Part shown: positions 33,661 to 55,982 of the stretch, piece by piece | Numbering within the stretch: the stretch's first letter is position 1 | How the letters are laid out: each line of letters starts with the position of its first letter | DNA from: Candidatus Heimdallarchaeum endolithica | GTDB taxonomy: Archaea; Asgardarchaeota; Heimdallarchaeia; Heimdallarchaeales; Heimdallarchaeaceae | Assembly: GCA_021513715.1 (NCBI GenBank) | Contig: CP084167.1 | Coordinates: 658,117 to 722,116 of the forward strand | Direction of reading: 5' to 3' | Length of the DNA: 64,000 bases | Translations under genes and position numbers: made by a program | Notes under the pieces: model-generated | The model's input: only the letters and a program-made list of their open reading frames with translations | Databases searched by the model: none | What the model was told of the DNA's origin: nothing

Positions 33661-33720
33661 AAAAAGGACTTAACTAATTCTATCCTCTTATATTTGAGGT
33701 TTAGTTCTTTCTTTTTTGTC

Positions 33721-33800
33721 TCTCGTGGAGTGAAGAAAGATAGAAAGAAAAACTTTCTTTTCTTCTTTATGATTCCCACGATTCGTGTATGATGTCTGTC
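33721..33800 (+). ncRNA. Degenerate copy of the TnpB-associated structured 3' element
   Basis: CTCGTGGAGTGAAGA...hairpin...CTTTATGATTCCCACGATTC matches 52649-52710; the inner stem differs in sequence but stays complementary. Confidence 0.35.
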
Positions 33801-34017
33801 TCAACTCTTCATAGCATTGTATGACTTGGTTGAGTTCAAGAGATTAAACTTTTACTTGTTTTTTCTCTTGCAAGACAGAGTGCGAAAAACTTTACGTAAA
33901 AAAGTAAATCATGACAAAATACTGCATCTTCTGGTGTTTTTGATCCACATTTTGTACAATATTTCATAAACATTCACCCATATTACTACCATAGTAGTAA
34001 TACTATCTTATATAAAT

Positions 34018-34572: not shown

Positions 34573-34604
34573 TCAAATCTTTTCTCCGAGTTGAGTTATA
34601 GTTT

Positions 34605-40481: not shown

Positions 40482-40596
40482 ATTTATAACCTTTACATTT
40501 ATATATTACAGATTCTCTGTTAAGAACTGCTTATTTATAAGTTGTAAATAATAAAGTGAAAACAAATATAAATAATTTACTTAATTTTTTCTCGGT

Positions 40597-40700
40597 TCTT
40601 TGTTCACTCAATAGACTTGGATTACACTTTTGGGCACTAGAGAAACATAGGGGTGATTCATAAATTTTTCTCCAGGAGTAAGGAGGTTAAGAGACTAATG
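40597..40700 (-). pseudogene. 3'-terminal fragment of an IS481-like transposase gene
   Basis: Reverse complement of 40621-40700 is near-identical to 44540-44627 (…TPGERFMNHPYVSLVPKSVTQVY*). Confidence 0.6.
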
Positions 40701-40729
40701 AGGTCAACTAAAATTGTAGTAAAAAAGTA

Positions 40730-41270
40730 AATCATGTCTAAAAAGTCTATTTCTTGACTTACACTGCCTGAAGGAGCAAAAGGTAATTGTAGCAGATTAG
40801 AGGACTGTAGAAAGTATTAAGGACACAAGAAGGTAAACGATCAAGGATAGGGGAAGAGAGATTTTGAGGAAACCGAAAACATGTTCAACACTACTACGAT
40901 ATTCAGGGTGATGATTATAGTTATTGAGACCAGAATAAAGACGATGAGCATGGTCTTATCCCTATTATTTATCCTAAAACTAACGCTCGTTATTCTGGTT
41001 ATCCACCATTTGTATCTATAGTCCATGAGTTGAAATTTTACGTAATTTCTTCAGGACTCTCCCCAACCAATCAACAAACTTAGCGAAAGTTGTGAAGACT
41101 GGCTTAAGAGAACATGAAAGACACAGTCTTAATTAAGTTCTCTAAGGGGTTCATCTCCTTATCCCGGGCACTCATAACTCCCAAAGGGAAGACCGGGTGT
41201 CGTAGGAGTGAAACCTACGTCTTTAAGCATATAGCTCAAGACACTAGATAAATTAGAATTAAATATATAA
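40730..41270 (-). pseudogene. 5'-truncated, indel-bearing copy of the IS4/IS5-like DDE transposase gene
   Basis: Minus-strand AHRLYSGLNNYNHHPEYRSSVEHVFGFLKISLP... aligns with the C-terminal half of the transposase at 48491-49435; degenerate right inverted repeat at about 40729-40747. Confidence 0.6.
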
Positions 41271-41286
41271 AGATAGCTGAAAAGTT

Positions 41287-41892
41287 GTGACACTCCCTAA
41301 TATCGTGTATGTATTCTTTATTTTTGCAAATGTGTTTCAGGTTGTTATTGGTCTGATAACTCCACAAACTAAAAATTTAGTTTATTACGTAAAAAAGTAT
41401 CTCATGGACATAGTAGGTCCTACAGCTGAAATTAATGAATTAAGTGTTATTACAAAAACAGGTGATATTAGTGTTAATTCACACACTACTGAAAATGTTA
41501 CAATTAACAACATTATGCTTATTTCAACTACAGGTATTATTCATTTTAGTTTAAGTGATGAAGGAATAAATTATATAAGCAATGCTCTTTCAACCACTAC
41601 TACAGGAAAGATAGAGTTCGATTTTGGAAATAATTGCACTTACAACGGAACAGAAATTAACCTTTCAACAACAACAGGAAAAATAGTTGTTTATTGTACA
41701 AATATGAATTACTTAGTCAATGTATCGTGGTTAATTTCTACAACTACTGGTTCTGTTTATGCAAATATTACTCAAGATTTTATTATTGAAAATCAATTAC
41801 AAGTTTCGTTTTTCATTACAGTAAATACTGGTTCAATAGAAGTATTAACTACTTTTCATGAAGAGCTTTTTTGTACATTTTTGTCAAATTAA
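41287..41892 (+). CDS. Hypothetical protein with STTTGKI repeats (DUF4097/adhesin-like)
   Basis: Three to four repeats of STTTG(K/S)I in a beta-rich sequence; GTG start, so the true start is uncertain. Confidence 0.35.
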   Translation: MTLPNIVYVFFIFANVFQVVIGLITPQTKNLVYYVKKYLMDIVGPTAEINELSVITKTGDISVNSHTTENVTINNIMLISTTGIIHFSLSDEGINYISNALSTTTTGKIEFDFGNNCTYNGTEINLSTTTGKIVVYCTNMNYLVNVSWLISTTTGSVYANITQDFIIENQLQVSFFITVNTGSIEVLTTFHEELFCTFLSN

Positions 41893-42430
41893 AAAATTGG
41901 TGTTTAAATAGTGAAAAGACATTATTAATGTAGAGAGTGAAAAAAAAAGATAGATGTTAAGAAAAATACTTACTCTCTAAGCTGGCACGGCGTGTCAGGA
42001 TAAAAAAAACATGCGCATAAAGAAAGAAATCAAAGAAAATTTGAATACGACTTAACTTTCCCGTGTGAGAGGATTTATTCATCCAGTTTCCACGGTGGAG
42101 GAGTGCTCAACCTTCTCCTCTGGCTCAATGAGTGTTTAGATCTCCCTCCTAGACAGATCTTTCCGAGAGCAAGATTGGCGTACAAAAATATTGTACAAAA
42201 ATTAAGTTGATGAAGATATAGGCTACCTTTTTGAAGCAAATACAGCTACAGGTACAATAAGCATTCCTAGTCAATCAACAAACTATGATACAGCTCTTAA
42301 CAAATACTATTTCTCTCTGCACACCAGTACTGGAGACATAAAAGCAGAGGTATAATCTACTACTTCTTTTTTTTGTTTTTTCTTTTCTAACTTACAATAA
42401 ATTAAAAAATGAACAAATAATTTTTTTTCT

Positions 42431-43576
42431 ATGAACGAAAAATACATCGATCAAATCAGAGCAAATTCTCCGACTTTAAATCAAGTAACTTTTTTAAATC
42501 ATGCAAGTACAGCACCCTTACACGGTAGAACACAGCAAGCGTTTCATGATTATTTGAATCAGTGGTCTAAGTATGATTTTGCTGAATCCAAAGAAAAGAG
42601 TCAACTAGCTCGTGAGGAATTTGCTAAACTAATTGGTGCTTCAAAGGAAGAAATACTTTTTACTTCTGATGTTACTCAAGGTACCAATCTTGCCGTTCAT
42701 ATGTTAGATTATGATGAAAAAAGTAACATTGTATGTTATTGGAATGATTATGCAGGACAAGTACATAGTGCTCTTTTCTTAAATAAAAAGAAAAAAATAG
42801 AATATCGTCCAGTCCCAGATCGTGAAGGTTACATTTATCCTGATGACTTTGCTGAAAAAATAGATAAGAATACTAAAATTGTTCTTTTGTCTCATGTTCA
42901 ATGGATTACTGGGTTTAAATCTGATATCAAAGAAATAACTAAAATTGCTCATGAAAATGGTGCCATGATTCTTGTAGATGTTATTCAGAGTTCAGGTGTG
43001 CTCGAGATTGATGTTAAAGACTGGGATGTTGATTTTCTTACTTCAGGAGTAGCTAAATGGCTTTTAGGACCAAATCAAGCAGGTTTCTTTTACATGAAAA
43101 AAAAGTTAATTGATGAATACGATCCACCTTTACCTGGTTACCAAGGAGCTGATTACGGCTCGATTGACTCACCTTATTGGAATGTTAAACAGATAGAATA
43201 TAGAGAAGGTATTGACAAGTTTCAAATTGCAAATATTGGACCAATGATGTATCAGATTGCATATGAAGGTATGAAAATAATCACTGAATATGGAATAAAA
43301 AAGGTGGAAAAAAGAGTTTTAGATTTAACTTCTTACCTTATCGAGAGAATTCAAGAACTTGGCAATTATGAGTTTTTAAGTCCTATTGAAGATAAATACA
43401 GAGCTGGAATTGTTAATTTCAAAGTTGAAAACAACATTGAGATAGCTAAAAAACTTTCTGAAGAAAAAGTAGTTGTTTCTTCAAGATATGGAGGAATCAG
43501 GATTAGTCCTCATTTTTATAATACCAAAGAAGACTTAGACAAATTTATAGAATTATTTAAGGCAATCAAAAAATAG
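42431..43576 (+). CDS. PLP-dependent class V aminotransferase / cysteine-desulfurase-fold enzyme
   Basis: SHVQWITGF ... ILVDVIQSSG ... SGVAKWLLGP with candidate PLP-binding Lys. Confidence 0.65.
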   Translation: MNEKYIDQIRANSPTLNQVTFLNHASTAPLHGRTQQAFHDYLNQWSKYDFAESKEKSQLAREEFAKLIGASKEEILFTSDVTQGTNLAVHMLDYDEKSNIVCYWNDYAGQVHSALFLNKKKKIEYRPVPDREGYIYPDDFAEKIDKNTKIVLLSHVQWITGFKSDIKEITKIAHENGAMILVDVIQSSGVLEIDVKDWDVDFLTSGVAKWLLGPNQAGFFYMKKKLIDEYDPPLPGYQGADYGSIDSPYWNVKQIEYREGIDKFQIANIGPMMYQIAYEGMKIITEYGIKKVEKRVLDLTSYLIERIQELGNYEFLSPIEDKYRAGIVNFKVENNIEIAKKLSEEKVVVSSRYGGIRISPHFYNTKEDLDKFIELFKAIKK

Positions 43577-43688
43577 ACTTAAATTCGCTCTATCTTACTT
43601 TTTTTGAACTCACTTATTTCTCTGTGTATACTCCACTCACATTGGTAACAAATAAATAGAAGTGGGTTACGTGGGTAAGTGATTAAAT

Positions 43689-44627
43689 ATGAATAAGACC
43701 GAACGTAACCTGGAGAAACTAAGAAAAATTGTAGTTAAAAAAGCTTTGGAAGGAGAGAAGATAAAAGAGATAGCTCACAAGTATATGGTGAGTAGGAAGT
43801 TTGTGTATAAGTGGTTGAAGAGGTTCAGAGAGAACCCTGAAGGAGAATGGTGGAAAGATAGATCCTCCAGACCAAAAACTATACACAGGAAAGTGGATGA
43901 GGAGTTAAAAGAGAGGATAAGGGAGTTAAGAATAAAACAAGGAATGAATGTGGAGAAGATAGCTTATTTGTTGAAGAGAGAAGGAAAAGCACTCTCTCAG
44001 ACGACAGTGACGAAAGTAATAAAAGAGTTAGGTCTTCCTTTATGGGTCAATAGAAAAAAGAGGAAGAGACCTCGATACAAGAGTTTTGAACGTCAAAAAC
44101 CTAACGAACTCTGGCAAATAGATGTGAAAGGACCATTCTGGGTAGAAGAACAGGGACAACATCTCCATCTCATAACCTTGATAGACGACCACTCACGATT
44201 CTGTCTGGGAGCTAAATTCCACCCTTTTGCACCAAAAAAAGAGCAGATAATAAATCTACTAGAGGAAGCAATAAAAGAGTACGGTTACCCCGAGTCTATC
44301 CTCACGGACAATGGAGCACTCTTCTCTTCCGTTAGAGGAGGAACAAGTACCTTCTCCCGTTGGTGTCAAACAGAAGGAATAAAACACATCAGAGCTAGAG
44401 TTTTTCACCCCGAAACATGTGGAAAAGTAGAAAGACTACATGGGACAATCATCCGTGAGATGGAAAGATTAGGTCTAAAATACTGCAACCCCGACCTCTC
44501 CTACTACCGCTCTTACTACAATTTTAGTCGTCCTCACCAATCTCTTAACTTCCTCACCCCAGGAGAAAGATTTATGAATCACCCCTATGTTTCTCTAGTA
44601 CCCAAAAGTGTAACCCAAGTCTATTGA
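43689..44627 (+). CDS. IS481-family-like transposase (HTH plus rve integrase core, DDE)
   Basis: N-terminal HTH; WQIDVKGPF...LIDDHSR...LTDNGALF...HPETCGKVER; GC content higher than flanking DNA. Confidence 0.75.
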   Translation: MNKTERNLEKLRKIVVKKALEGEKIKEIAHKYMVSRKFVYKWLKRFRENPEGEWWKDRSSRPKTIHRKVDEELKERIRELRIKQGMNVEKIAYLLKREGKALSQTTVTKVIKELGLPLWVNRKKRKRPRYKSFERQKPNELWQIDVKGPFWVEEQGQHLHLITLIDDHSRFCLGAKFHPFAPKKEQIINLLEEAIKEYGYPESILTDNGALFSSVRGGTSTFSRWCQTEGIKHIRARVFHPETCGKVERLHGTIIREMERLGLKYCNPDLSYYRSYYNFSRPHQSLNFLTPGERFMNHPYVSLVPKSVTQVY

Positions 44628-44722
44628 GTAAACACTCACTTATTTCTCTGCCTAAATTTTATATAGTAGTACCTTTTTATCCTCTTAATACAAATACATA
44701 TGACCAATACGGGTGATTTAAA

Positions 44723-47593
44723 TTGAAAAAAAAGAAACTTGTAGAGCCTGAGGAAGTAAAAGAAGAAGTTTATTGGCATGCGTTGAAAAAAGAAGAAATT
44801 TTTGAACGCTTAAATACTTCTGAGAATGGTCTTAGCTCTGAAGAAGTCACAAAAAGACACGAAATATACGGTTTAAATAAGATAATAATCAAAGAACGTT
44901 TTAAAATTCTAAAAATGATTATTGAACAATTTCAAGATTTCCTTGTACTGTTACTAGTTGTAGCTGGGACTATAAGTTTAGGTGTAGGTATTTCTTATTC
45001 TAGTCCTGGAAACATTTCTACTGAGATTTATGATGCAATAGCTATTTTTGCAATAGTATTTCTAAATGCAGGAATAGGATTTGCTCAAGACTATAAATCT
45101 AATCAAGCGTTAGAAAAGCTCAAAGAGTATTTTGAACAAGATGTTGTTACTATAAGAAATGGAAAGGAGTTTATTGTTCCTTCTTCAGACCTTGCTCCTG
45201 GGGATATTATAGTAATAGAAGCAGGAGATAAGGTTCCAGCGGATTGTAGAATATTGGAATTGAACAATTTGAAGATAGATGAAGCTCCTCTCACTGGAGA
45301 ATCAAAATCTATAACCAAAAACTTGGAACTTGTTAAAAAAGATGCGAGGATACATGATAGAAAAAATATGGTCTTTATGGGAACAACTTGTGTTTACGGA
45401 AGAGCTAAACTTGTAGTAGTTAAGATAGGAATGGAAACAGAGATGGGTGAAATCGCTAAGTTAACCCAAGTTAAAACAGAGATGACACCTTTACAAAAAT
45501 CTCTTGACAGATTTGGTAAAAGTCTAGGAGCAGTAATTCTGGCTTTATCTGCCGTTATAATGATAGTAGAAATTATTTCAGAGATTCATTTTTACGGTTC
45601 AGAAAAAACTGTTTTTGCGATCATTTTTGAAAGCTTTGAAACAGCGATTGCACTAGCTATTTCAGCTGTTCCAGAGGGATTAGCAGCAGCGATAGTAATC
45701 ACATTAGCTATAGGAGTATCACGTATGGCAAAAAAACGAACAATTGTTTCGAGATTACCTGCCGTTGAAACTTTAGGAAGTGTCAATTACATATGCTCTG
45801 ATAAGACTGGAACCTTAACAAGAAATGAGATGACTGTTAAAGAGATATGGACAGCTGATGATAAAAATATTGAAGTGGAGGGAAGTGGGTATCTAAAAGA
45901 GGGTAGATTTATGCAAGGAGAAAAAGAGTTTGAACCCTCAAAATCTCCTGCACTTATGAAAGTGCTAGAAATATCTTATCACTGTAATAACTCTTCTTTA
46001 ATAAGAAATGGTAATTCCATACAAGTTAGAGGAGACCCCACTGAAGCAGCTCTTTTGGTTGTAGCAGAGAAAGGTGGATTAACTGAAGCTGACAAAAAGG
46101 AAAGAATCCACGAATTGTTCTTTGATAGCGATAGAAAAAGAATGACCACAATTCACAGAGATGGAGATAAAAATATCGCTTTAATGAAAGGTTCTCCTCC
46201 TATTGTTTTACAAAGGTGTAAATACATACTAGTCAATGGAAAAGTTGAACCATTAACTGCAGAGAAACAAAAAACTATAGAAGAAGCAAATATAAATATG
46301 TCATCAAAAGCTCTTCGAGTTCTTGCTATGGCTTACCGTGAAGTTCCTGAAGAATTTGATAGAGATGACTATGACTCTATAGAAGTAGATATGATTTTTG
46401 TAGGATTAACAGGAATGATAGACCCTGCAAGACCTAATGTAAAAGAAGCAATTCAAGAATGTAAAGATGCTGGAATAACTACAATAATGATTACTGGAGA
46501 TCAAAAAGAAACAGCTGTAGCTGTAGCTAAAGAGATTGGAATTCTCACATCTGAAGAAGATCTTGTCGTAAATGGTGAAGAATTAGATTTAATGACTGAA
46601 GAAGAGTTAATAGAAAAAATAGAGAAAATAAAAGTTTACAGCAGAATGAGCCCCAAAGATAAGTACAGAGTTGTTGAAACTTTACAAAAACTGGATAACT
46701 TTGTAGCTGTAACTGGAGATGGAGTTAATGATGCACCAGCACTAAAGAAAGCAGATATAGGTGTAGCCATGGGTATTACTGGAACAGATGTTACTAAAGA
46801 AGTTGCAGATATGGTTATTACAGATGATGCTTTTAATACGATAGTCGATGCAGTAGAAGAGGGACGTAATATCTTTGCTAATATGAAGAGATTTATCAGA
46901 TATACTCTAAGTAGTAATTTTGACGAACTATTTGCAGTATTGCTTATTACCTCATGGTTAGGAGTTTTACCTTTTACTCCCCTACAGATTCTATTCCTTA
47001 ACTTGCTAACAGACGCATTACCAGCTTTAAGTTTATCTTTTGAGCCATATGATCCTAAGTTAATGAAAAAACCTCCAAGAGGAAAGCATGATTCATTCCT
47101 TCGAGAAATGTATTCTTTTGCAGCGATATCAGGTATAGTTGCTTTCTTTGCTTCTGTTTCAATGTTCTTGCTGGTTTATAACCATTTGGGACCACAAAAA
47201 TTCGGTTCGATAAGTATTCCAGAGAATAAAGAACAAATAGTAGCATATGCACAATTTATGGCTTTCATTGTAACCCTTACATTTGAGCTAGTTTTTGTAT
47301 TCATTGCAAGAAATGATAATGATGTTAAAGTATATGAAACTAATCCTTTCAAGAATATGATGCTTATCTGGGCAGTTCTTAGTTCATTTGTATTACTTGG
47401 ACTAGTAATTTTTGTTCCTGTCCTTCAACAAATATTTACATCATTCAACAACTACTACTACGTTCCTGATATAGTTGATTGGGGATGGATCTTACTTTTC
47501 ACAGTAGGATTTAATATTCTAATTGAACTTTTCAGAGAACTCATGATGACTAAAAGAATGAAGAAATTTGCTCACAAAATTGGGTTTGCTTAA
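44723..47593 (+). CDS. P2-type cation-transporting P-type ATPase
   Basis: DKTGTLT phosphorylation site, PEGL in TM4, TGDGVNDAPALKKADIGVAMG hinge; 956 aa. Start appears to be TTG at 44723; the first in-frame ATG is 65 codons downstream. Confidence 0.85.
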   Translation: MKKKKLVEPEEVKEEVYWHALKKEEIFERLNTSENGLSSEEVTKRHEIYGLNKIIIKERFKILKMIIEQFQDFLVLLLVVAGTISLGVGISYSSPGNISTEIYDAIAIFAIVFLNAGIGFAQDYKSNQALEKLKEYFEQDVVTIRNGKEFIVPSSDLAPGDIIVIEAGDKVPADCRILELNNLKIDEAPLTGESKSITKNLELVKKDARIHDRKNMVFMGTTCVYGRAKLVVVKIGMETEMGEIAKLTQVKTEMTPLQKSLDRFGKSLGAVILALSAVIMIVEIISEIHFYGSEKTVFAIIFESFETAIALAISAVPEGLAAAIVITLAIGVSRMAKKRTIVSRLPAVETLGSVNYICSDKTGTLTRNEMTVKEIWTADDKNIEVEGSGYLKEGRFMQGEKEFEPSKSPALMKVLEISYHCNNSSLIRNGNSIQVRGDPTEAALLVVAEKGGLTEADKKERIHELFFDSDRKRMTTIHRDGDKNIALMKGSPPIVLQRCKYILVNGKVEPLTAEKQKTIEEANINMSSKALRVLAMAYREVPEEFDRDDYDSIEVDMIFVGLTGMIDPARPNVKEAIQECKDAGITTIMITGDQKETAVAVAKEIGILTSEEDLVVNGEELDLMTEEELIEKIEKIKVYSRMSPKDKYRVVETLQKLDNFVAVTGDGVNDAPALKKADIGVAMGITGTDVTKEVADMVITDDAFNTIVDAVEEGRNIFANMKRFIRYTLSSNFDELFAVLLITSWLGVLPFTPLQILFLNLLTDALPALSLSFEPYDPKLMKKPPRGKHDSFLREMYSFAAISGIVAFFASVSMFLLVYNHLGPQKFGSISIPENKEQIVAYAQFMAFIVTLTFELVFVFIARNDNDVKVYETNPFKNMMLIWAVLSSFVLLGLVIFVPVLQQIFTSFNNYYYVPDIVDWGWILLFTVGFNILIELFRELMMTKRMKKFAHKIGFA

Positions 47594-47711
47594 TTTTTTT
47601 TTCATTTTATTTTGTTATTTTTCTATTAATAAATGGTTTAATGCTATTCAATAATGTAAAAAAGAAAGACTTAGTTGATTAAACTTTGTCTCACTATTAA
47701 TCCCATTTATC

Positions 47712-48296
47712 TTATTTGTCAAATAGTATTTTGATTTTATCATCTATTTCTTTAGCTTCTTGTTTTTTTCCCATTTGTGATAAAACTCTAGAAAGTAATG
47801 ATAAAATTTCCTTAGAACTTGGATTTATTTCAATTGCTTTCTTTAACAAATCTTCTGCTTCCTCCAACTTGTTTTTTTCAGCTTTTAGTTTAGCTAATTC
47901 AAAAAGAGCAGAACTATTAGTACTATCACTTTCTATTGCTTTAGTAAAAGCATTCTCTGCTTGTTCAATATTATCAAGTTTCAAGTAACACACGCCCAAA
48001 TTAAACCAAGTTATAGTGTCAGAATTGTTAATAGCTAACGCCTTATTGTAAAGTTCTAATGCTTTTTCTAAATCACCTTTTTTTTCTGTTAAAACACCTA
48101 AGTTGGTTAAACATTGAACATAATTTGGGTCATACTCCAACGCAGTCTTATATGCATTAATGGCTTCATCTATTTCTCCTTTTGACTCAAGAATCGCGCC
48201 TAGATTAAACCAACCAAAAGGGTCTGATGGATTTTCCCTTATATATTCTTTAAGATCTTCTATTATTTCAGATATTTCTTCACCCATTTTTATCAC
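47712..48296 (-). CDS. TPR-repeat protein
   Basis: Five to six canonical 34-aa TPR units (W-LG-Y-A-F-A-P pattern). Confidence 0.7.
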   Translation of the reverse strand: MIKMGEEISEIIEDLKEYIRENPSDPFGWFNLGAILESKGEIDEAINAYKTALEYDPNYVQCLTNLGVLTEKKGDLEKALELYNKALAINNSDTITWFNLGVCYLKLDNIEQAENAFTKAIESDSTNSSALFELAKLKAEKNKLEEAEDLLKKAIEINPSSKEILSLLSRVLSQMGKKQEAKEIDDKIKILFDK

Positions 48297-48460
48297 TGTA
48301 ATTATTGAACTAGAATCATTCCTTTTTTTCTTTTATATATTTTGCCTAAATAAATTTAAGAAGTAGCATTATAGTAAGATTTTTTTTTAAAATATTACCT
48401 TTTTTTTTAATGAACAATACATTTACAATAACAATTAAATATCAAATGTAATTCTAGTAT

Positions 48461-49464
48461 AAGCATGTCCAAAAATTAATTTTTATTAATGTGGGGGTTT
48501 ATGTCGGAAGTATGAATTTCTTTCAGATCATAGACCCCCACAAAGCAAGAGAATTCATAATCATTAATGAACCTTTCCTTAAGAAACTGGTGAAAGAGGA
48601 ACCGAGAGAAAGCAAGAGAGGGAGAAAGAGAATAGCAGAAAGATGGGTGATACTGGCTTTAGCAATCATTGCTAGAATAGAAGGGATAGCTTGGAGGAAG
48701 TTAGAGGAAAAGTTGTCTTTATGCGATTTTTTGATAGAAGAGGGGTGGATGAAGAAGATTCCTTCTAAATCTACTTTTCATGCAGTGTGGAGAGCGACAG
48801 AAAGTAAAATCTTAGAGCAGTGGATAATAGATTTAGGTAGGGAAATAGTGAGGAAAAAAGGCTTGAAAGCTATGGCAGTGGATAGTTCAGGGTTTAAAAT
48901 CCGTCAAGCTTCTGTTTGGCGTTTTCTCAAATGGTCAAGAGGGACACTAAAGAAAACCTCTAAACTTTTCTGGAAGATACACCTTATAGTTGGTTTACCC
49001 TCTCGAGCTATAGTCTCTCTCGCTCATTCTGCTAGTAACACTCACGATAGTAAAGTCTTCGGTTTACTCTGGCAGAAACTTCCTTCTGCACTCTTGAGAC
49101 CTTTCTTGCGATTTTATGGAGACTGTGCCTACTGGACAGAAAATATCGTTGGACTTCTTAGCCAACATTCCTTTTTCCCTGTTATTCCCCCAAAAAGTAA
49201 TGCTCGTTATCCCTCTCCTCCTCCCCTCGGACCAATAGTTCAAGCTCATCGTCTCTACCCTGGTCTGTATCGTCGTAATCATCATCCCGAGTATCGTAGT
49301 AGTATTGAACACGTCTTTGGTCTCCTTAAACTCTCTCTTCCCCCAATCCTTGATCGTTTACCCTCCACCATCCTCTCTACCTTGTACAGTTCTCTTCTCT
49401 GTTACAACTACCTTTTACTCCTTCGGACCGTTTAGTTGGTGAAAAAGAATTTTTGGACATGCTT
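48461..49464 (+). mobile_element. IS4/IS5-family-like insertion sequence (1004 bp) with perfect 17-bp terminal inverted repeats
   Basis: Left IR AAGCATGTCCAAAAATT at 48461-48477; right IR is its exact reverse complement at 49448-49464; flanked by direct repeat TAGTAT at 48455-48460 and 49465-49470. Confidence 0.8.
48491..49435 (+). CDS. DDE transposase (IS4/IS5-like)
   Basis: AVDSSGF, YGDCAY and IEHVFG...K motifs; the ATG at 48512 may be the true start. Confidence 0.75.
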   Translation: MGVYVGSMNFFQIIDPHKAREFIIINEPFLKKLVKEEPRESKRGRKRIAERWVILALAIIARIEGIAWRKLEEKLSLCDFLIEEGWMKKIPSKSTFHAVWRATESKILEQWIIDLGREIVRKKGLKAMAVDSSGFKIRQASVWRFLKWSRGTLKKTSKLFWKIHLIVGLPSRAIVSLAHSASNTHDSKVFGLLWQKLPSALLRPFLRFYGDCAYWTENIVGLLSQHSFFPVIPPKSNARYPSPPPLGPIVQAHRLYPGLYRRNHHPEYRSSIEHVFGLLKLSLPPILDRLPSTILSTLYSSLLCYNYLLLLRTV

Positions 49465-49491
49465 TAGTATATTTGGGAAAAAGAGGTAAAA

Positions 49492-50838
49492 ATGACTCCA
49501 AAAGATTCTAAAAAACCTTCAGAACTAGAAAAAGCTATTTTAGAAGCAAAAGCAAAGTTACAAAATGTAGTTGCTAAAAAAGAAGGTAAATATATAAGAA
49601 AAACAGAGCTAGAGAATGCTATAAATGAAGCGTTAAAAAGCTTAAAGCCTGTTTCTGAAGAATTAATAAAGAAGAAAATAAAAACCAGTTCATTTAAAGA
49701 TGAACTAGTAAAGGCAAAGTCAGAACTAAAGCAAGTAAAACAAGAAAAAAAGAGAGTTACAAAAAACGATATGGAATTAGCTATTAAAGAAGCTATTAAA
49801 AATCTAAAACCATTAACTGAAAAAGGGAAAAAGCAAGTTTCTTCAAAAGGAGAATTAGAATTAGCTATTTTAGATGCTTTTTCAAAGCTAATTGAAGTTT
49901 CAGATGAACAGAAAAATTATGCTTTAACAAAGAAAGAACTAAAAATTATAATTAAGGATGCTAAAAATAGATTAAAGAAAGTACCAGAAAAAGAACTCAA
50001 ACATGCATTAACAAAGAAAGAACTAGAGCACGAGCTGAGAGACTTAAAAGGAAAACTAAAACCAGTCCCAGAACAAGTAAAAGTACCAGAACTTTCGATT
50101 AAACAACTTAGAACTGCCATTAAAGAAGCAAAAGTAAGATTAAAACCTGTTCCAGAGAATTTAAAGAGTATAAGTTCTATCTCAGTTGGTAGATCAATAA
50201 AAAAAGAAGGAGAAAAAATAAAAAGGAAACTATTGCCTATTCCAGGAGATGCTAAAACTTTCGAAATTCAGAACATAGAGCACATTAAACTCTTTTCTGC
50301 AGAAAGGTTGGATTTTAATAAATTCATTTCAAAACTAGAAAAACAAAAACAACAACCACTGCGTAAAATAATAATTAATCCAAAAACAAAGTTTTGTAAA
50401 ATAGAGTTAATGAACAAAGATAACCCTAATTCTCCGTATAACATTACAGGAGGAGGAGATATTTTAGAATTCACTTCAACTTACCGTTTCTTGTTTAAAC
50501 ATGGGTATATAAAAATAGAGAATAACTATCCCTTACTCTTTTCAGATAAACAATGGATTGTCTGGTATTTAAGAGAAAAAATAGAATTAACTTTCGTGGA
50601 CATAGCTTTTGCAATGAATGAAACAGTTAGAAACGTTAGAAACCTGTTTAATGAAGCTGAAAAAAGAATAAATCAAATATTAGATTTTGTTGTAGATGAA
50701 GAGCATTACCAATTAGTAGCAGCACATGCAATGAAAAGAAAAGGAGTACGTATCCAACAGATTGGAGATACTATAATTGAGCCTAAAATTACAGAAAAAT
50801 ATCTCATTGAACAACAACAACTAGAAGAATTAACTTAA
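49492..50838 (+). CDS. Lysine-rich repeat protein with C-terminal HTH-like segment
   Basis: At least six repeats of EL..AI.EA...LKPV in the N-terminal 250 aa; C-terminal LTFVDIAFAMNETVRNVRNLFNEAEKRI resembles a sigma-region-4/LuxR-type HTH. Confidence 0.45.
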   Translation: MTPKDSKKPSELEKAILEAKAKLQNVVAKKEGKYIRKTELENAINEALKSLKPVSEELIKKKIKTSSFKDELVKAKSELKQVKQEKKRVTKNDMELAIKEAIKNLKPLTEKGKKQVSSKGELELAILDAFSKLIEVSDEQKNYALTKKELKIIIKDAKNRLKKVPEKELKHALTKKELEHELRDLKGKLKPVPEQVKVPELSIKQLRTAIKEAKVRLKPVPENLKSISSISVGRSIKKEGEKIKRKLLPIPGDAKTFEIQNIEHIKLFSAERLDFNKFISKLEKQKQQPLRKIIINPKTKFCKIELMNKDNPNSPYNITGGGDILEFTSTYRFLFKHGYIKIENNYPLLFSDKQWIVWYLREKIELTFVDIAFAMNETVRNVRNLFNEAEKRINQILDFVVDEEHYQLVAAHAMKRKGVRIQQIGDTIIEPKITEKYLIEQQQLEELT

Positions 50839-51094
50839 ATTGAAGAACTTGAAAAGAAAGTAGAAATACCAAGAGAGTGGGTTATAAAAACAGCTTATAA
50901 AATAGAAACTCTGGAAGGAGGTTATTATCTATGGAAAGAGTTTCTAGGAGCATTAAACAAGGATTCTCTACTGATGATAGAAAACGACAGTTTACCCCAT
51001 GAAAAAATTTTTTGTATAAATTCTTTAGGTTTTTAAATAAATTGCTTAATTAATAAATAGAGAAAAGAAAGTGAAGAAGAAAAAGGATTAGAAA

Positions 51095-52609
51095 ATGGAG
51101 AAAATAGTGAGAACATTAAGAGTAAGAGTAAAAACAGAAAAATTAACGAAGTTCAAAAAAGATAGAATGAGAAAGATAACAGGAAGAGATACTAGAATAA
51201 TAGAAGAATATGTAAAAATAATAAGAAAAGAAGAAGAAAAAGTAATAAGAAAAATAAGCAAACAAGGAGAGATAAGACTAAAAGTGCATAAAGGCAAGTT
51301 AGATGAACTAACACTAACAACAACAAAGAAAACAAATAAGAAAAAAAGGACAGTTGTACCCTATGATCTCAAAAAAAAGTTTCCTAATTGTTCTCACGAT
51401 GAATTTCAAGAGTGTAGAGATGTAGCAGTACAACTTTATGAACAAGGATATAACAAAAAAAAGAACAAAAAAAGAAAAAAAGGATATATTTTACCACCAG
51501 TAAAACGAGCAAGAAAACAACTAATCAATAAAAATAGATTTATCATAAAACATTTGCCTAAAGGGAAAAACACTCTTTCTCGTTGGTGGGTAGGGATAAG
51601 AGACTCATTAGACACACAAAAAAGAAAAAAACGAACACATCGAAGACTATGGATACCACTAGAAATGAGTGAATATCACCAAAAAGAAATAAGAAAAGGA
51701 CAAGTAAAAAGTCTAGAATTAAAATATAACTCACAAAAAAACAGTTGGTGGGTAAATTTTCAGATAACAATTATTCCTCAAGCAGATCTCTACAAGAAAA
51801 AAAAAGTTGACTCTTCTCTTCTTCCTCCAGCTGTGCTGGGAATAGATCTGGGAGAAAAAATACCTGGAGCAGGAGTGTTATTAACATCAACAGGTAAAAT
51901 ATCTCCCAATCATATTTTCTTCTGGAAAATGAAAGAATGGAAAAAAAGGAAGTATATCTATCAACAGAAAATAAGAAGATTGCAACGAAAACTTGCAAAA
52001 AAGAAGAATACATGTAAAGACAAAAGAAGCAATAAAGGATATCAAACATTAAAAAAATTAAGAAAAAGATATCAGACGCTCTCTCATGCTTATTTATATG
52101 CTTTTATCAATGAGTTGTGGAAAGATATTGTTGAACTTACACAGGATTATAATTTAGTCGTTGTTGTTGGTTACCCCAAGGGAGTACACTCGAAATTAAG
52201 AAAAAAAGTAATGAATCAAGACTACAGACCACAGAACTCTTCTACTCGTTTTACTCGTAAAAAGGTTCACCCGTGGAATTACTACCAAATAGTTACTCTT
52301 CTTCGACGAATGTGTCTTCTAAATGGGTTAGAACCCGAACGTATCCTCACCTTACAGGAATATCTTACCTCTTCTCTTTGCTCAAAATGTGGACGAAAGA
52401 CTATTCGACCTGTTAGAGGTCTTGTTTATTGTTCTCATTGTCATTATACTCTTCACTCTGACCTTACCGGTGCAATCAACATCGGGAAATTGTTTCTTCG
52501 TTTTCTTTTTCGCCCCCGAGCATCTACACTAGTTGATTATCTTACTGGACAACACTTTAGTCTCACCTTTTATACTTCCTTCAGGGGTCTCAACCAGTGG
52601 TTGAAATAG
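51095..52609 (+). CDS. tnpB: TnpB-like RuvC nuclease (IS200/IS605 OrfB, Cas12/Fanzor-related)
   Basis: RuvC-I LGIDLG, RuvC-II region around FINELW, zinc finger CSKCG...CSHCH, RuvC-III HSDLTGAINIG; lysine/arginine-rich N-terminal half. Confidence 0.8.
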   Translation: MEKIVRTLRVRVKTEKLTKFKKDRMRKITGRDTRIIEEYVKIIRKEEEKVIRKISKQGEIRLKVHKGKLDELTLTTTKKTNKKKRTVVPYDLKKKFPNCSHDEFQECRDVAVQLYEQGYNKKKNKKRKKGYILPPVKRARKQLINKNRFIIKHLPKGKNTLSRWWVGIRDSLDTQKRKKRTHRRLWIPLEMSEYHQKEIRKGQVKSLELKYNSQKNSWWVNFQITIIPQADLYKKKKVDSSLLPPAVLGIDLGEKIPGAGVLLTSTGKISPNHIFFWKMKEWKKRKYIYQQKIRRLQRKLAKKKNTCKDKRSNKGYQTLKKLRKRYQTLSHAYLYAFINELWKDIVELTQDYNLVVVVGYPKGVHSKLRKKVMNQDYRPQNSSTRFTRKKVHPWNYYQIVTLLRRMCLLNGLEPERILTLQEYLTSSLCSKCGRKTIRPVRGLVYCSHCHYTLHSDLTGAINIGKLFLRFLFRPRASTLVDYLTGQHFSLTFYTSFRGLNQWLK

Positions 52610-52775
52610 ACCTATGTACTATTATACCATAATGGTAGAATACTTAGTACTCGTGGAGTGAAGAGTTCTACTCTTCTTTATGCGTCCCACGATTCCTAGA
52701 TGATGTCAGTATGCTCAAACATCTGTTTCAGCGTTTGTATTCTTCCACTGACGTAGTAGGAGAAAATTGTACAAA
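52610..52775 (+). ncRNA. Candidate TnpB-associated guide-RNA scaffold (omega-RNA/reRNA-like) and element right end
   Basis: Immediately after the tnpB stop: near-palindrome TACCATAATGGTA (52625-52638), nested stems CGTGG...GAAGAG-loop-CTCTTC...CCACG (52649-52700), ending near palindromic TTGTACAA (52767-52774); core conserved with compensatory changes at 33721-33800. Confidence 0.4.
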
Positions 52776-53849
52776 AAATTAACTCATGAAGAAGAATACT
52801 TGATAAACGCTATAGGATTAGGAGGAGAAATAATACCTGACATCAAGAGCAATTTCAAAAAACTAATTGAAATATTCGCAGAAGCTCCTGACGATCTTGT
52901 AAAAATAGGAGATACAGCCTTTTTCATGGGTTATATGGATAATATTTATTCTAGCCAGTTTTGGACAATAAAAAACTTCGTTAAAGGAAACAAAAAAAAT
53001 TGGAAAAAAGATTTTATAAAAATAGCAATAAAAGCATATTCAAAAGCTCTAGATAATATTATTCCATCAGTTAACCCAGTAAAGTACGGTTTGCTAATAA
53101 ACGATTTAGGAGTATTTTACTTATTTCTGTCAGAATTAGAGCAAACTAAAAAACACACTATAGAAGCAATCAAAAATTTACTTGATGCAAAAAAAGCATT
53201 ACCTTTAGAGTTCTTTAAAACAAAACATAGTGATATTTGTTATAATTTAGGACTGGCTCATTTATTTTTGTCTAAAATAGAAGAAAAAGAAGAAAATATT
53301 AAACAAGCTATTCTAAACTTTAACGTTGCTCTGCAAGGAAGAACGTTAAGAATGTATCCATTGAAACATGCTATAACACAAGTCAATCTAGGAATTGTCT
53401 ACCAAAAATTAGCTGAAATCGAAGAAACCTCTTTAAATTGTACATTAAGTATAGAATCTTATAACAATGCTTTGAGATCCAACACTCTAGACGTCATGCC
53501 AACAGAAGCAGCGATGATATATAACAACATAGGTCTATCTTATTGCACTTTATCTGATGTACAGGAAACAGAATACAATATTTCACAAGCTTTAATTGTT
53601 TTAAATGATGCTTTGACCATCAGAAATGAAGCACAGTTTCCTGTTGAATATGCAATTACAACAAGTATTTTAGGAAAAGCTTATACAATTCTAGCAACAG
53701 TAAAAGAAAAAAAAGAATATTATGAAAAGGCAATATCAGCATTTAATAAAACAATTAAGATATTCATCAAGAAATATGAAGACTTCTACCAAGCAATAAT
53801 ACAAGAAAAAGAAAAAGTAGAAGAGAAACTAAAAGAAATAGCGCAATAA
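52767..53849 (+). CDS. TPR-like helical repeat protein
   Basis: Recurrent (N/Y)N(L/I)G..Y..L...E pattern every ~40 aa; start ambiguous (TTG at 52767, TTG at 52800 or a downstream ATG). Confidence 0.5.
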   Translation: MYKKLTHEEEYLINAIGLGGEIIPDIKSNFKKLIEIFAEAPDDLVKIGDTAFFMGYMDNIYSSQFWTIKNFVKGNKKNWKKDFIKIAIKAYSKALDNIIPSVNPVKYGLLINDLGVFYLFLSELEQTKKHTIEAIKNLLDAKKALPLEFFKTKHSDICYNLGLAHLFLSKIEEKEENIKQAILNFNVALQGRTLRMYPLKHAITQVNLGIVYQKLAEIEETSLNCTLSIESYNNALRSNTLDVMPTEAAMIYNNIGLSYCTLSDVQETEYNISQALIVLNDALTIRNEAQFPVEYAITTSILGKAYTILATVKEKKEYYEKAISAFNKTIKIFIKKYEDFYQAIIQEKEKVEEKLKEIAQ

Positions 53850-55976: not shown

Positions 55977-55982
55977 ATGAAA

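What the first reader, a model, noticed from the sequence alone, without database searches (positions are those of the whole stretch)
40560..52775. Mobile-element-dense accessory segment carrying transport and metabolic cargo
Within about 12 kb there are two IS families (one as an intact element, both as remnants), a TnpB element, a lysine-rich HTH protein and GC-rich non-coding islands, interleaved with a class V aminotransferase, a P-type ATPase and TPR proteins. The transposase genes are GC-richer than the host-like genes, pointing to horizontal origin. The cargo genes may have been acquired or may be mobilisable.
Basis: partly seen in the sequence, partly recalled or inferred. Interest (0 to 1): 0.4.

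Follow-up and report, generated by a model that had tools for sequence, protein, structure and literature searches.

The report
Core genes peppered by resident transposons
This stretch of an Asgard archaeon's chromosome is not an imported gene island: it is ordinary, inherited host DNA that three families of the genome's own jumping elements have repeatedly inserted into, splitting two host genes.

Summary

The window is Ca. Heimdallarchaeum endolithica. Its sister species H. aukensis has the same genes in the same order (83-86% nucleotide identity, 84-97% amino-acid identity) and clean empty sites where the window carries:
- an IS481 element (43625-44634, 16-bp target duplication);
- an IS5-like element (48461-49464, 6-bp duplication);
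- a 1787-bp TnpB-only element (51002-52788).

The aminotransferase and the P-type ATPase have host-like GC3 (0.21). The aminotransferase's homologues grade outward through Heimdallarchaeaceae and other Asgard archaea. Only the two DDE transposase genes are GC-rich (GC3 0.38-0.41).

New details:
- The "lysine-rich HTH protein" and the downstream TPR protein are two halves of one 856-aa host gene split by the TnpB element.
- Both "GC-rich islands" are interiors of about 350-380-bp MITE-like derivatives of the TnpB element family. They sit in what remains of a second host gene.
- This TnpB family has 20-30-bp terminal inverted repeats and CATG at both junctions. That is unlike canonical IS200/IS605 elements.

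Overall the finding is ordinary biology in a genome already known to be transposon-rich. The TnpB end architecture is the one modestly novel point.

The parts
40598..40722 (-). Remnant of the IS481-family element: the last ~125 nt including the right inverted repeat, truncated internally.
   Evidence: 89% identical to the reverse complement of 44513-44634. tblastn matches transposase residues 276-312 at 86%.
40719..40736 (+). 18-nt scrap of a TnpB-element right end (GTAAAAAAGTAAATCATG). It lies between the IS481 and IS5-like remnants. Its CATG coincides with the CATG inside the IS5-like inverted repeat.
   Evidence: Exact 18-mer shared only with the right end at 33896-33913. nhmmer hit to the right-end part of the profile. 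The insertion-into-the-repeat reading is inferred.
40733..41025 (-). Remnant of a diverged IS5-like copy. 40733-40952 is the reverse complement of the 3' end. 40956-41025 is a short direct-orientation fragment, giving a fold-back junction.
   Evidence: 74-80% identity to 49241-49466. 40956-41025 matches 49173-49242 at 69%. tblastn.
41028..41406 (+). MITE-1 ('GC-rich island 1'): a 379-bp non-coding element with TnpB-family termini. CATG lies immediately left (41024-41027) and forms its last 4 nt.
   Evidence: Terminal inverted repeat matches 19 of 24 positions (CATGAGTTGAAATTTTACGTAAT / ATTACGTAAAAAAGTATCTCATG) ([I20], 67, 68). The right flank resumes homology to the aukensis 413-aa gene exactly at 41407. 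Core GC 0.44. RNA fold z = -2.6.
41407..41860 (+). Middle part of a disrupted host gene, orthologous to the aukensis 413-aa zinc-ribbon protein. The ORF called at 41287-41892 starts inside MITE-1 and ends inside MITE-2.
   Evidence: 78% nucleotide identity to L002 8034-8453. Translation alignment. Pfam on the aukensis protein.
41861..42212 (+). MITE-2 ('GC-rich island 2'): a 352-bp non-coding insertion absent from aukensis. Its ends resemble those of the TnpB element. CATG lies on its left and it ends in GATG.
   Evidence: Exact insertion relative to L002 8453/8472; removing it restores the ORF. The left end matches about 70 nt at 68% and the right end 37 nt at 76% to the ends of 51002-52788. 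Core GC 0.44.
42431..43576 (+). Class V aminotransferase / cysteine-desulfurase-like PLP enzyme. Host gene.
   Evidence: Pfam PF00266, E=9e-45. 89% amino-acid identity to the syntenic aukensis ortholog. GC3 0.21. Asgard-graded homologue series.
43625..44634 (+). Intact IS481-family insertion sequence (transposase 43689-44627), inserted between the aminotransferase and the ATPase.
   Evidence: NCBIfam IS481 score 232.4, above the cutoff of 224. 16-bp target duplication at 43609-43624 and 44635-44650. One diverged copy of the duplicated target sequence (12 of 16 positions match), with no element, in aukensis. GC3 0.41.
44723..47593 (+). Type II (Ca2+/cation) P-type ATPase. Host gene.
   Evidence: Pfam E1-E2_ATPase and related domains. 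Best NCBIfam hits are PMR1/SERCA type, below cutoff. 94% amino-acid identity to the syntenic aukensis ortholog. GC3 0.21.
47712..48296 (-). 194-aa TPR protein. Host gene.
   Evidence: Pfam TPR families. 84.5% amino-acid identity to the syntenic aukensis ortholog.
48461..49464 (+). Intact IS5-like (DDE_Tnp_1) insertion sequence (transposase 48491-49435).
   Evidence: Pfam PF01609. 17-bp perfect inverted repeats and a TAGTAT duplication at 48455-48460 and 49465-49470. Empty site in aukensis. A 90%-identity cluster of 70 members in H. endolithica, with full-length relatives of 303-317 aa. GC3 0.38.
49492..51001 (+). 5' part of an 856-aa host gene (the 'lysine-rich protein'). It carries an in-frame TAA at 50836-50838 and is cut off by the TnpB element after CATG at 50998-51001.
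   Evidence: Deleting the 1787-bp element (run as 51004-52790, which leaves the same joined sequence as deleting 51002-52788 because CATGAA is repeated at both junctions) gives an ungapped 856-aa alignment to aukensis L002:16861-19431 with few substitutions. No Pfam domain found; HTH unsupported.
51002..52788 (+). TnpB-only transposable element, 1787 bp. It comprises the left end, tnpB (51095-52609, 504 aa), a conserved structured 3' region (about 52575-52788, the presumed omega RNA) and a right end finishing in CATG.
   Evidence: Absent from aukensis at an exact site. PF07282 hit and invariant D-E-D triad and zinc finger. The 3' region folds with z = -3.2. A 45-nt block is 82% identical to the copy at 33755-33799, although the proteins are only 59% identical. 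A 98%-identical copy exists in a JGI metagenome (L083).
52789..53849 (+). 3' part of the same 856-aa host gene (the '360-aa TPR protein', ORF called from 52767).
   Evidence: frame restored. Weak TPR hits in both the window half and the aukensis full-length protein.
33285..33913 (+). Outside the finding: a 5'-truncated copy of the main Heimdallarchaeum TnpB subfamily (C-terminal 122 codons, the 3' RNA region and the right end). It sits at one junction of a block that is inverted relative to aukensis.
   Evidence: tblastn 59% over residues 383-504. 81-84% identity of its 3' region to L082 and L086. The right-end flank corresponds to aukensis position ~7437 in inverted orientation.

Best explanation
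The segment is a vertically inherited, syntenic part of the Ca. Heimdallarchaeum endolithica chromosome. It has become a local landing and rearrangement zone for the genome's own multi-copy mobile elements. The aminotransferase, P-type ATPase and TPR genes are resident host genes, not cargo.

**Shown**
- After the split from H. aukensis, an IS481-family element and an IS5-like element each made a simple cut-and-paste-type insertion into intergenic DNA. Each has its own intact target duplication.
- A 1787-bp TnpB-only element inserted into the coding sequence of an 856-aa host gene. It split that gene into the 'lysine-rich' and 'TPR' ORFs.
- Two ~350-380-bp non-coding derivatives with the same kind of ends (MITE-1 and MITE-2) lie in what remains of a 413-aa zinc-ribbon gene.
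- At 40.6-41.0 kb, older copies of all three families are nested and truncated.

**Inferred**
- The TnpB element works as an OMEGA-type system. tnpB encodes an RuvC nuclease. The conserved structured ~210-nt 3' region would be its omega RNA, and read-through into the right flank (AAGAAGAATACTTG...) would supply the guide.
- The CATG (often CCATG) left of the element would serve as the target-adjacent motif. The nuclease would then cut element-free alleles and favour retention or homing.
- Transposition itself would be carried out in trans by an enzyme encoded elsewhere in the genome. That enzyme recognises the 20-30-bp terminal inverted repeats and a CATG target. Its class (Y1, serine recombinase or DDE) is unresolved.
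For: **Source and synteny**
- The source organism is identified by a 100% protein match on the 3.33-Mb H. endolithica contig.
- L002 (H. aukensis) aligns collinearly with window 41422-57153. The gaps fall exactly at the three elements and the two MITEs.
- Junction sequences show a single copy of each duplicated target in aukensis.
- Deleting the 1787-bp TnpB element (coordinates as run: 51004-52790) restores an ungapped 856-aa ORF closely matching aukensis. Deleting MITE-2 restores the 413-aa gene's frame.

**Host-like character of the non-element genes**
- Ortholog amino-acid identities are 84.5-97%, against a published genome-wide identity of 90% (PMC8813620).
- GC3 of the 'cargo' genes is 0.21, against 0.38-0.41 for the DDE transposases.
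- The aminotransferase's homologues grade through Heimdallarchaeaceae, then Hermod- and Hodarchaeota, then Bathyarchaeia.

**The elements are resident and multi-copy**
- The IS5-like transposase cluster has 70 members in this genome.
- The TnpB main-subfamily clusters have 31 members (endolithica) and 18 members (aukensis).
- Published work reports 11 transposase families with up to 27 copies in these genomes.

**TnpB element anatomy**
- The catalytic triad and zinc finger are invariant across 13 relatives.
- The left flank is CATG in 9 of 9 copies. The right end finishes in CATG in 6 of 8 copies (MITE-2 ends GATG; L086 ends ATCAT).
- Terminal inverted repeats are present, for example CATGATTTACTTTTTGCGTAA against TTACGTAAAAAAGTAAATCATG.
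- The 3' region is conserved and structured: z = -3.2, and 13 of 71 predicted pairs show compensatory change in 5 sequences.
- Flanking genes of relatives are diverse housekeeping genes, and no transposase recurs among the families listed (the 25 most frequent of 74).
Against: - Only one close relative genome region (22.8 kb) was available. The polarity of each difference (insertion here versus loss in aukensis) rests on target duplications and frame restoration, not on an outgroup.
- The ~3.1-kb FG-GAP/TSP3 surface-protein gene just upstream (37356-40481) is absent from this position in aukensis. aukensis in turn has a 3-gene ABC-transporter operon between the ATPase and the TPR gene that the window lacks. 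Some true accessory-gene flux therefore occurs in this neighbourhood.
- The omega RNA, the target-adjacent motif and the homing role are inferred from family knowledge. Covariation support comes from only 5 sequences, 4 of them closely related.
MITE-2's end similarity to the TnpB element is modest (68-76%).
Confidence: 0.88

Rival explanations
1. The 12-kb segment is a horizontally acquired accessory island, and its transport and metabolic genes arrived with the IS elements or can be moved by them.
For: - High element density, and GC-rich transposase genes.
- Gene-content differences from aukensis occur nearby: the FG-GAP gene is present only here and the ABC operon only there.
Against: - Same gene order in aukensis without the elements, with exact empty sites.
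- The genes have host-like GC3.
- Ortholog identity is typical of the genome.
- The aminotransferase has an Asgard-graded homologue series.
Confidence: 0.04
2. Composite transposon. The IS481 remnant (40598-40722) and the intact IS481 (43625-44634) present two outward-facing right ends. Together they could move the intervening ~4 kb, including the aminotransferase, as one unit. They may have delivered it here.
For: - The two right-end repeats are in inverted orientation and face outward.
- The intact copy encodes a full-length transposase.
Against: - No common target duplication flanks 40598-44634...CTCGGTTCTT on the left against CTCACTTATTTCTCTG on the right.
- The intact IS481 has its own perfect 16-bp duplication, so it inserted alone.
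- The aminotransferase sits at the same place in aukensis without any IS481.
Confidence: 0.03
3. The TnpB-only elements and MITEs are ordinary IS200/IS605 (IS1341-group) elements moved by a Y1 'peel-and-paste' TnpA. CATG would be the left target sequence and also the right cleavage site. The apparent inverted repeats would be only subterminal hairpins.
For: - A constant tetranucleotide lies left of the left end and closes the right end, without needing a duplication.
- The right end has a subterminal palindrome that keeps pairing between subfamilies through a compensatory change (ACTTTACGTAAA..GT against AATTGTACAA..TT).
- tnpB-only copies far outnumbering tnpA copies is known in archaea (PMC3119063).
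Against: - The terminal 10 nt outside the palindrome (CATGATTTAC / GTAAATCATG) are also inverted copies of each other. This is a true terminal inverted repeat, which IS200/IS605 elements are defined as lacking.
- The left ends show no consistent hairpin on the top strand (sequence inspection).
- No Y1 transposase gene appeared among the flank-ORF families listed, which were the 25 most frequent of 74.
Confidence: 0.35

Closest known systems
IS481 family insertion sequences (ISfinder / NCBIfam NF033577)
   Same: - Single rve-type DDE transposase of 312 aa.
- Element length of ~1 kb.
- Inverted repeats starting TGT.
- A long target duplication.
- Score above the curated family cutoff.
   Different: - The 16-bp duplication is at or just above the range I recall for the family (4-15 bp; from my own knowledge).
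- The host is archaeal (Asgard).
IS5/IS4-type DDE_Tnp_1 insertion sequences
   Same: - PF01609 domain.
- ~1-kb element.
- Perfect 17-bp terminal inverted repeats.
- A short target duplication.
   Different: - It scores well below every NCBIfam IS5/IS4/IS1182 cutoff (70.9 against 140).
- All detectable relatives are Heimdallarchaeota, so this is a lineage-restricted branch.
- A 6-bp duplication is not typical of the named IS5 subgroups (from my own knowledge).
IS1341-group (tnpB-only) elements of the IS200/IS605 family, and the OMEGA TnpB-omegaRNA system (Karvelis 2021; Altae-Tran 2021; Meers 2023, cited from my own knowledge; review PMC13565253)
   Same: - RuvC-type TnpB with a D-E-D triad and a zinc finger.
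- No transposase gene in the element.
- A conserved structured non-coding 3' region running to the right end.
- Insertion next to a fixed short motif.
- Many diverged copies per genome.
   Different: - 20-30-bp terminal inverted repeats, and the same tetranucleotide (CATG) at both junctions. Canonical IS200/IS605 and IS607 elements have no terminal inverted repeats and no duplications.
- The protein scores below the NCBIfam TnpB cutoff (54.5 against 100).
- The protein carries a lysine-rich N-terminal region and a conserved C-terminal extension.
MITEs and PATEs derived from archaeal transposons (Haloquadratum; PMC3119063)
   Same: Short non-coding elements that keep the ends of a protein-coding parent element and insert at the same kind of target. 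Internal-deletion derivatives of tnpB elements are documented there.
   Different: - The two interiors here are unrelated to each other and to the parent's 3' RNA region.
- Only one copy of each was seen in the data held.
Eukaryotic Fanzor (TnpB homologue) genes carried inside inverted-repeat-bounded DNA transposons (PMC10530073)
   Same: A TnpB-type nuclease rides in an element bounded by terminal inverted repeats and is moved by an unrelated transposase in trans.
   Different: - No link to any identified transposase here.
- No phylogenetic test of relatedness to Fanzors was made.
- This is a resemblance in architecture only.

Membership tests
IS481 family | rve DDE transposase scoring above the curated family model cutoff | tested here: met
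   NF033577 scores 232.4 bits against a cutoff of 224, covering 5-284 of 284 profile positions.
IS481 family | ~1-kb element with a single ORF, terminal inverted repeats and a direct target duplication | tested here: met
   1010 bp. Ends are TGTATACTCC... and ...GAGTAAACA. 16-bp duplication; a single diverged copy of the target sequence, with no element, in aukensis.
IS5 family | Transposase reaches a curated IS5-family model cutoff | tested here: not met
   Best hit is NF033579 at 70.9 bits against a cutoff of 140. Only the Pfam DDE_Tnp_1 superfamily domain passes, at 43.9 against 23.
IS5 family | Terminal inverted repeats plus a short target duplication | tested here: met
   17-bp perfect inverted repeats and a TAGTAT duplication; empty site in aukensis.
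TnpB / OMEGA RNA-guided nuclease | RuvC D-E-D catalytic triad and a zinc-finger (TNB) domain | tested here: met
   PF07282 scores 40.2 against 26.3. D251, E422, D456 and C429/C432/C446/C449 are invariant in 13 sequences. The NCBIfam guided_TnpB score of 54.5 is below its cutoff of 100.
TnpB / OMEGA RNA-guided nuclease | Structured omega RNA overlapping the 3' end of tnpB and reaching the right end | tested here: inconclusive
   The 3' region is more conserved than the protein: an 82% block against 59% amino-acid identity. Fold z = -3.2. RNAalifold finds 71 pairs, 13 of them with compensatory change, but from only 5 sequences. No Rfam hit.
TnpB / OMEGA RNA-guided nuclease | RNA-guided, motif-dependent DNA cleavage | not testable with these tools
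   This needs biochemistry or a motif-depletion assay.
IS200/IS605 family (IS1341 group) | No terminal inverted repeats | tested here: not met
   Left and right ends are inverted copies over ~20-33 nt, including the non-palindromic terminal CATGATTTAC / GTAAATCATG.
IS200/IS605 family (IS1341 group) | Insertion 3' of a fixed 4-5-nt target, without target duplication | tested here: inconclusive
   CATG lies left of the left end in 9 of 9 copies. The right end finishes in CATG in 6 of 8 copies. One CATG-equivalent is present at the empty sites. This fits either a 4-bp duplication or a target plus right cleavage site.
IS200/IS605 family (IS1341 group) | Subterminal hairpins at both ends on the same strand | tested here: inconclusive
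   The right-end palindrome is conserved, with one compensatory change between subfamilies. No consistent left-end hairpin was seen by inspection.
IS200/IS605 family (IS1341 group) | A Y1 (HUH) TnpA available in the genome to move tnpB-only copies | not tested
   The complete genome was not searchable here. No Y1 or resolvase family was among the flank-ORF families listed, which were the top 25 of 74.
MITE (miniature inverted-repeat element) | Short and non-coding, with inverted-repeat ends related to a coding element and the same target signature | tested here: met
   MITE-1 is 379 bp with a 19/24 inverted repeat. MITE-2 is 352 bp with ends 68-76% identical to those of the TnpB element. Both have CATG on the left and CATG or GATG at the right end. 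MITE-2 is an exact insertion relative to aukensis.
MITE (miniature inverted-repeat element) | Repeated in the genome | tested here: inconclusive
   No second copy of either interior was found in the window or in 81 related loci. The whole genome was not available.
Genomic island / composite transposon carrying cargo | Absent from the same locus in close relatives | tested here: not met
   The genes are present in the same order in H. aukensis.
Genomic island / composite transposon carrying cargo | Cargo with atypical composition or foreign phylogeny | tested here: not met
   GC3 is 0.21 for both genes, within the host range. The aminotransferase's relatives are Heimdallarchaeaceae and other Asgard archaea.
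Genomic island / composite transposon carrying cargo | A target duplication flanking the whole unit | tested here: not met
   The flanks of 40598 and 44634 are unrelated. The intact IS481 has its own duplication.

The most novel reading that the evidence does not exclude
The Heimdallarchaeum TnpB-only elements and their MITE-like derivatives may form a distinct transposon type. They are bounded by 20-30-bp terminal inverted repeats and always sit between two CATG. An RNA-guided TnpB nuclease would ride in a double-strand, inverted-repeat or site-specific element moved by a non-Y1 enzyme. That would be an archaeal counterpart of the inverted-repeat transposons that carry Fanzor in eukaryotes, found in the archaeal group closest to eukaryotes.
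Probability: 0.25. Interest if true: 0.6.

Novelty: new variant of a known kind. Interest (0 to 1): 0.3.

Why it matters
**For the scan.** This finding can be closed. It is not a cargo-bearing island. It is a textbook case of resident insertion sequences eroding a conserved region of a genome already published as transposon-rich.

**Points worth keeping.**
- The annotation of this genome should merge two 'genes' into one disrupted 856-aa gene. The 201-aa ORF should be treated as a gene fragment.
- The Asgard TnpB family here offers exact, comparative-genomics-defined element boundaries, a candidate target-adjacent motif ((C)CATG) and a candidate guide. That makes it directly testable as an RNA-guided nuclease.
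- Its end architecture does not fit the two known TnpB-carrying transposon families. If a different transposase moves it, that bears on how TnpB/Fanzor nucleases changed vehicles around the archaeal-eukaryote boundary.

Tried and rejected
- **RNA family and tRNA scans.** Rfam at gathering threshold over the whole window, and at E<=1 over 40400-53000, gave nothing meaningful (one SCARNA3 hit at E=0.11). No tRNA or tmRNA was found. The GC-rich islands are therefore not known RNA families, and no tRNA integration site is involved.
- **MITE interiors as omega RNA scaffolds.** I tested whether they carry the TnpB 3' RNA scaffold. An nhmmer profile of the 3' region hit only the terminal ~25 nt, and BLAST against 81 related loci found nothing. 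Rejected.
- **MITE-1 against MITE-2.** Their interiors are no more similar than shuffled sequence.
- **HTH in the lysine-rich ORF.** Only a 13-bit hit at E=0.07. Not supported.
- **Mutated CATG at the aukensis empty sites as nuclease escape.** The aukensis empty sites read CACG, CACG and TATG. Only 42% of window CATG sites are conserved in aukensis, so 3 of 3 non-conserved has P of about 0.2. Not significant.
- **A transposase partner next to TnpB relatives.** No Y1 or serine recombinase gene appeared among the flank-ORF families listed. Distant relatives instead pair with an unknown giant ORF (see the items noticed in passing).
- **Inverted repeats in the 36-40% identity subfamilies (L088-L094).** No convincing ends were found.
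- **Supplementary files of Wu et al. 2022.** A search for IS family names returned nothing.
- **Aloposons from that paper.** They are unrelated to these elements.

Full report
**1. What is in the sequence**

The window is about 30% GC. Between 40.5 and 52.8 kb the ORF map and Pfam/NCBIfam scans give, in order:

- a 201-aa ORF with no domain (41287-41892);
- a class V aminotransferase (42431-43576);
- an rve/IS481 transposase (43689-44627; NCBIfam IS481 232.4 bits, cutoff 224);
- a type II P-type ATPase (44723-47593);
- a 194-aa TPR protein on the minus strand (47712-48296);
- a DDE_Tnp_1 transposase (48491-49435; best NCBIfam hit IS5 at 70.9 bits, below the cutoff of 140);
- a 448-aa lysine-rich ORF with no domain (49492-50838);
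- a 504-aa TnpB-like protein (51095-52609; PF07282);
- a 360-aa ORF with weak TPR hits (52767-53849).

Repeat searches confirm the remnants. 40598-40722 is the reverse complement of the IS481 3' end (89% identity). About 40733-40952 is the reverse complement of the IS5-like 3' end (74-80%).

GC3 is 0.41 for the IS481 transposase and 0.38 for the IS5-like transposase. It is 0.17-0.26 for all other genes, including the aminotransferase (0.21), the ATPase (0.21) and TnpB (0.24).

**2. Element boundaries**

The IS481 element spans 43625-44634. It has TGT... inverted repeats and a perfect 16-bp direct repeat (CTCACTTATTTCTCTG) on each side.

The IS5-like element spans 48461-49464. It has perfect 17-bp inverted repeats (AAGCATGTCCAAAAATT) and a TAGTAT duplication.

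Both are structurally intact, not just one. An independent Logan assembly contig (L001) is 100% identical to 44607-48489 and stops about 28 nt inside each IS. That is what multi-copy repeats do to short-read assemblies.

**3. Source organism and the decisive comparison**

The aminotransferase is 100% identical to a protein on the 3,326,783-bp contig of Ca. Heimdallarchaeum endolithica.

A genome-collection scan with the ATPase returned Ca. H. aukensis PM71 (CP084166.1, locus L002) at 94% identity. The next-best hits were 42-45% identical and mostly archaeal.

BLAST of L002 against the window is collinear from 41422 to 57153 at 78-86% nucleotide identity. The gaps fall exactly at five places:

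- 43625-44634 (IS481);
- 48461-49464 (IS5-like);
- about 51002-52788 (TnpB element);
- 41861-42212;
- the region left of 41407.

The junction sequences show that aukensis has one copy of each duplicated target and no element.

Ortholog amino-acid identities are 84.5-97% (aminotransferase 89.2%, ATPase 93.9%). These bracket the 90% genome-wide amino-acid identity published for the two species (PMC8813620).

The aminotransferase's homologues fall off smoothly: 89%, 70%, 64% and 56-60% within Heimdallarchaeaceae/Heimdallarchaeota, then 42% in Hermodarchaeota, 39% in Hodarchaeota and 36-38% in Bathyarchaeia.

Both conditions are met.

**4. The lysine-rich ORF and the TPR ORF are one gene**

In aukensis a single 856-aa ORF (L002 16861-19431) covers both. 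Deleting the 1787-bp element from the window restores a 2571-nt frame. The deletion was run as 51004-52790. This leaves the same joined sequence as 51002-52788, because CATGAA is repeated at both junctions.

The product aligns with the aukensis protein without gaps and with few substitutions. The only defect is an in-frame TAA at 50836-50838, where aukensis has His.

The TnpB element therefore sits inside a conserved host gene. No HTH could be verified in the lysine-rich part.

**5. The GC-rich islands are MITE-like elements in a second broken gene**

aukensis has a 413-aa zinc-ribbon protein (L002 7374-8615). In the window only its middle and end survive.

*MITE-2.* 41861-42212 (352 bp, core GC 0.44) is an exact insertion relative to aukensis, and removing it restores the frame. 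Its first ~70 nt and last 37 nt resemble the two ends of the TnpB element at 68% and 76% identity.

*MITE-1.* A profile of the TnpB 3' region, together with an inverted repeat already listed (I20), led to a second such element at 41028-41406 (379 bp). Its ends are CATG|AGTTGAAATTTTACGTAAT... and ...ATTACGTAAAAAAGTATCTCATG|, matching at 19 of 24 positions. Its right flank resumes the 413-aa gene exactly at 41407.

The 201-aa ORF starts inside MITE-1 and stops inside MITE-2, so it is a gene fragment.

The interiors of the two elements resemble neither each other nor the TnpB 3' region. What they encode, if anything, is unknown.

**6. The TnpB element family**

The window's TnpB keeps the RuvC triad (D251, E422, D456) and the CxxC..CxxC zinc finger. 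All are invariant in an alignment with 12 relatives.

Relatives with names or source labels are all Asgard archaea. The main ~484-aa subfamily forms 90%-identity clusters of 31 members (endolithica) and 18 members (aukensis). The window's copy is a 53%-identical side branch, with a 98%-identical copy in a JGI metagenome.

Comparing ends across copies (window element, MITE-1, MITE-2, and loci L082, L084-L087, L093, L108) shows:

- The base sequence immediately left of the left end is CATG in 9 of 9 copies (CCATG in 7).
- The right end finishes in CATG in 6 of 8 copies. MITE-2 ends in GATG and L086 in ATCAT.
- The ends are inverted copies of each other over 20-33 nt. An example is CATGATTTACTTTTTGCGTAA against TTACGTAAAAAAGTAAATCATG. 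This includes terminal bases that are not themselves palindromic.

Canonical IS200/IS605 and IS607 elements are defined as lacking terminal inverted repeats and target duplications (review PMC13565253; PMC3119063). On that feature this family does not fit.

The data cannot say whether the second CATG is a 4-bp duplication or the element's own right cleavage or crossover site.

No transposase-like neighbour recurs next to the relatives in the top-25 family list. The flanks are diverse housekeeping genes, as expected for a mobile tnpB-only element.

**7. The presumed guide RNA**

The ~210-300 nt between the end of tnpB and the right end is conserved. This includes a 45-nt block that is 82% identical between copies whose proteins are 59% identical.

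The window's copy folds better than shuffles (z = -3.2). RNAalifold on five copies gives a multi-stem structure in which 13 of 71 pairs show compensatory change, including a hairpin that keeps pairing while its length changes. Five sequences, four of them closely related, make this suggestive rather than proven.

From what is established for TnpB (cited from my own knowledge: Karvelis 2021, Altae-Tran 2021, Meers 2023), I infer three things. This region is the omega RNA. The flank AAGAAGAATACTTG... supplies the guide. (C)CATG is the target-adjacent motif.

**8. The junkyard at 40.6-41.0 kb and the wider neighbourhood**

The IS481 remnant is fused to an exact 18-nt copy of the TnpB right end (GTAAAAAAGTAAATCATG, 40719-40736). 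That copy's CATG is the CATG within the IS5-like inverted repeat (AAG-CATG-TCC). This reads as a TnpB element that had inserted into an IS5-like copy and was later mostly deleted (inference).

A 70-nt direct-orientation IS5-like fragment follows the inverted one.

Outside the finding:

- 33285-33913 is a 5'-truncated TnpB copy at one edge of a block (33.9-37.2 kb) that is inverted relative to aukensis.
- The FG-GAP/TSP3 gene at 37356-40481 is absent from this position in aukensis.
- aukensis has an ABC-transporter operon between the ATPase and the TPR gene that the window lacks.

The neighbourhood is therefore a rearrangement hot spot, but the genes inside the finding are not imports.

**9. 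Comparison with what is known, and novelty**

Wu et al. 2022 already reported 11 transposase/integrase families with up to 27 copies in these two genomes. A 2026 survey singled out H. endolithica for its transposon load. The density itself is therefore known.

Neither paper's main text contains the term TnpB (0 occurrences). The supplement search of Wu et al. for IS605/OrfB terms found nothing. I found no description of inverted-repeat-bounded, CATG-flanked tnpB-only elements or their MITEs in the papers I searched.

I classify the whole as ordinary. The TnpB family is a new variant of a known kind.

**10. Verdict**

- Observation: confirmed.
- Interpretation: only partly supported. Density and GC-rich transposases hold; accessory or mobilisable cargo does not.
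- Confidence in the resident-host-genes explanation: about 0.88.
- Interest: 0.3, carried mainly by the unusual TnpB end architecture and the clean, testable element boundaries.

Noticed in passing
window 32897-37284: The block 33910-37230 (three small genes plus an MFS transporter) is inverted relative to H. aukensis. One junction carries a 5'-truncated TnpB copy (33285-33913). It also carries a 360-bp inverted duplicate of the MFS gene's 3' end (32897-33259 against 36929-37284, 73-77% identity).
   Followed up: partly
window 37356-40481 (-): A 1041-aa FG-GAP / bacterial-TSP3 repeat surface protein. It contains 138-bp and 144-bp tandem repeats up to 99% identical. It is absent from this position in H. 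aukensis, so it is a real gene-content difference right next to the IS remnants.
   Followed up: partly
L002 12860-15779 (H. aukensis), corresponding to window ~47629/47644: aukensis has a three-gene ABC-transporter operon (ATPase plus two ABC-2 permeases) between the P-type ATPase and the TPR gene. The window lacks it. No IS sequence is visible at the window's junction.
   Followed up: partly
L095-L160, L163 3450-9665 and 15405-17665, L164 1-7109: Distant (~30% identity) relatives of this TnpB, from metagenomes, are divergently paired in 39 loci with a giant ORF (1388-1855 aa). That ORF has no Pfam, NCBIfam or PDB sequence match. One contig has two such pairs 7 kb apart (the TnpBs are 43% identical), and the giant proteins are about 25% identical over their full length between contigs. 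This is an unknown conserved two-gene module and is not present in the window.
   Followed up: partly
L108 ~1740-2207; L091 ~2660-2900: In other metagenome contigs, near-identical IS481 copies sit immediately beside or inside TnpB-family elements. Nesting of these two families, as at window 40598-40736, therefore recurs.
   Followed up: no
whole window: CATG, the tetranucleotide that flanks every TnpB-family element, is under-represented. There are 111 occurrences against 144 expected from a trinucleotide-based (CAT x ATG / AT) model and 180 from base composition.
   Followed up: no
window 50836-50838: The split 856-aa host gene also carries an in-frame TAA where aukensis has a His codon. The gene therefore has two independent lesions, which suggests it is decaying rather than just interrupted.
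   Followed up: partly
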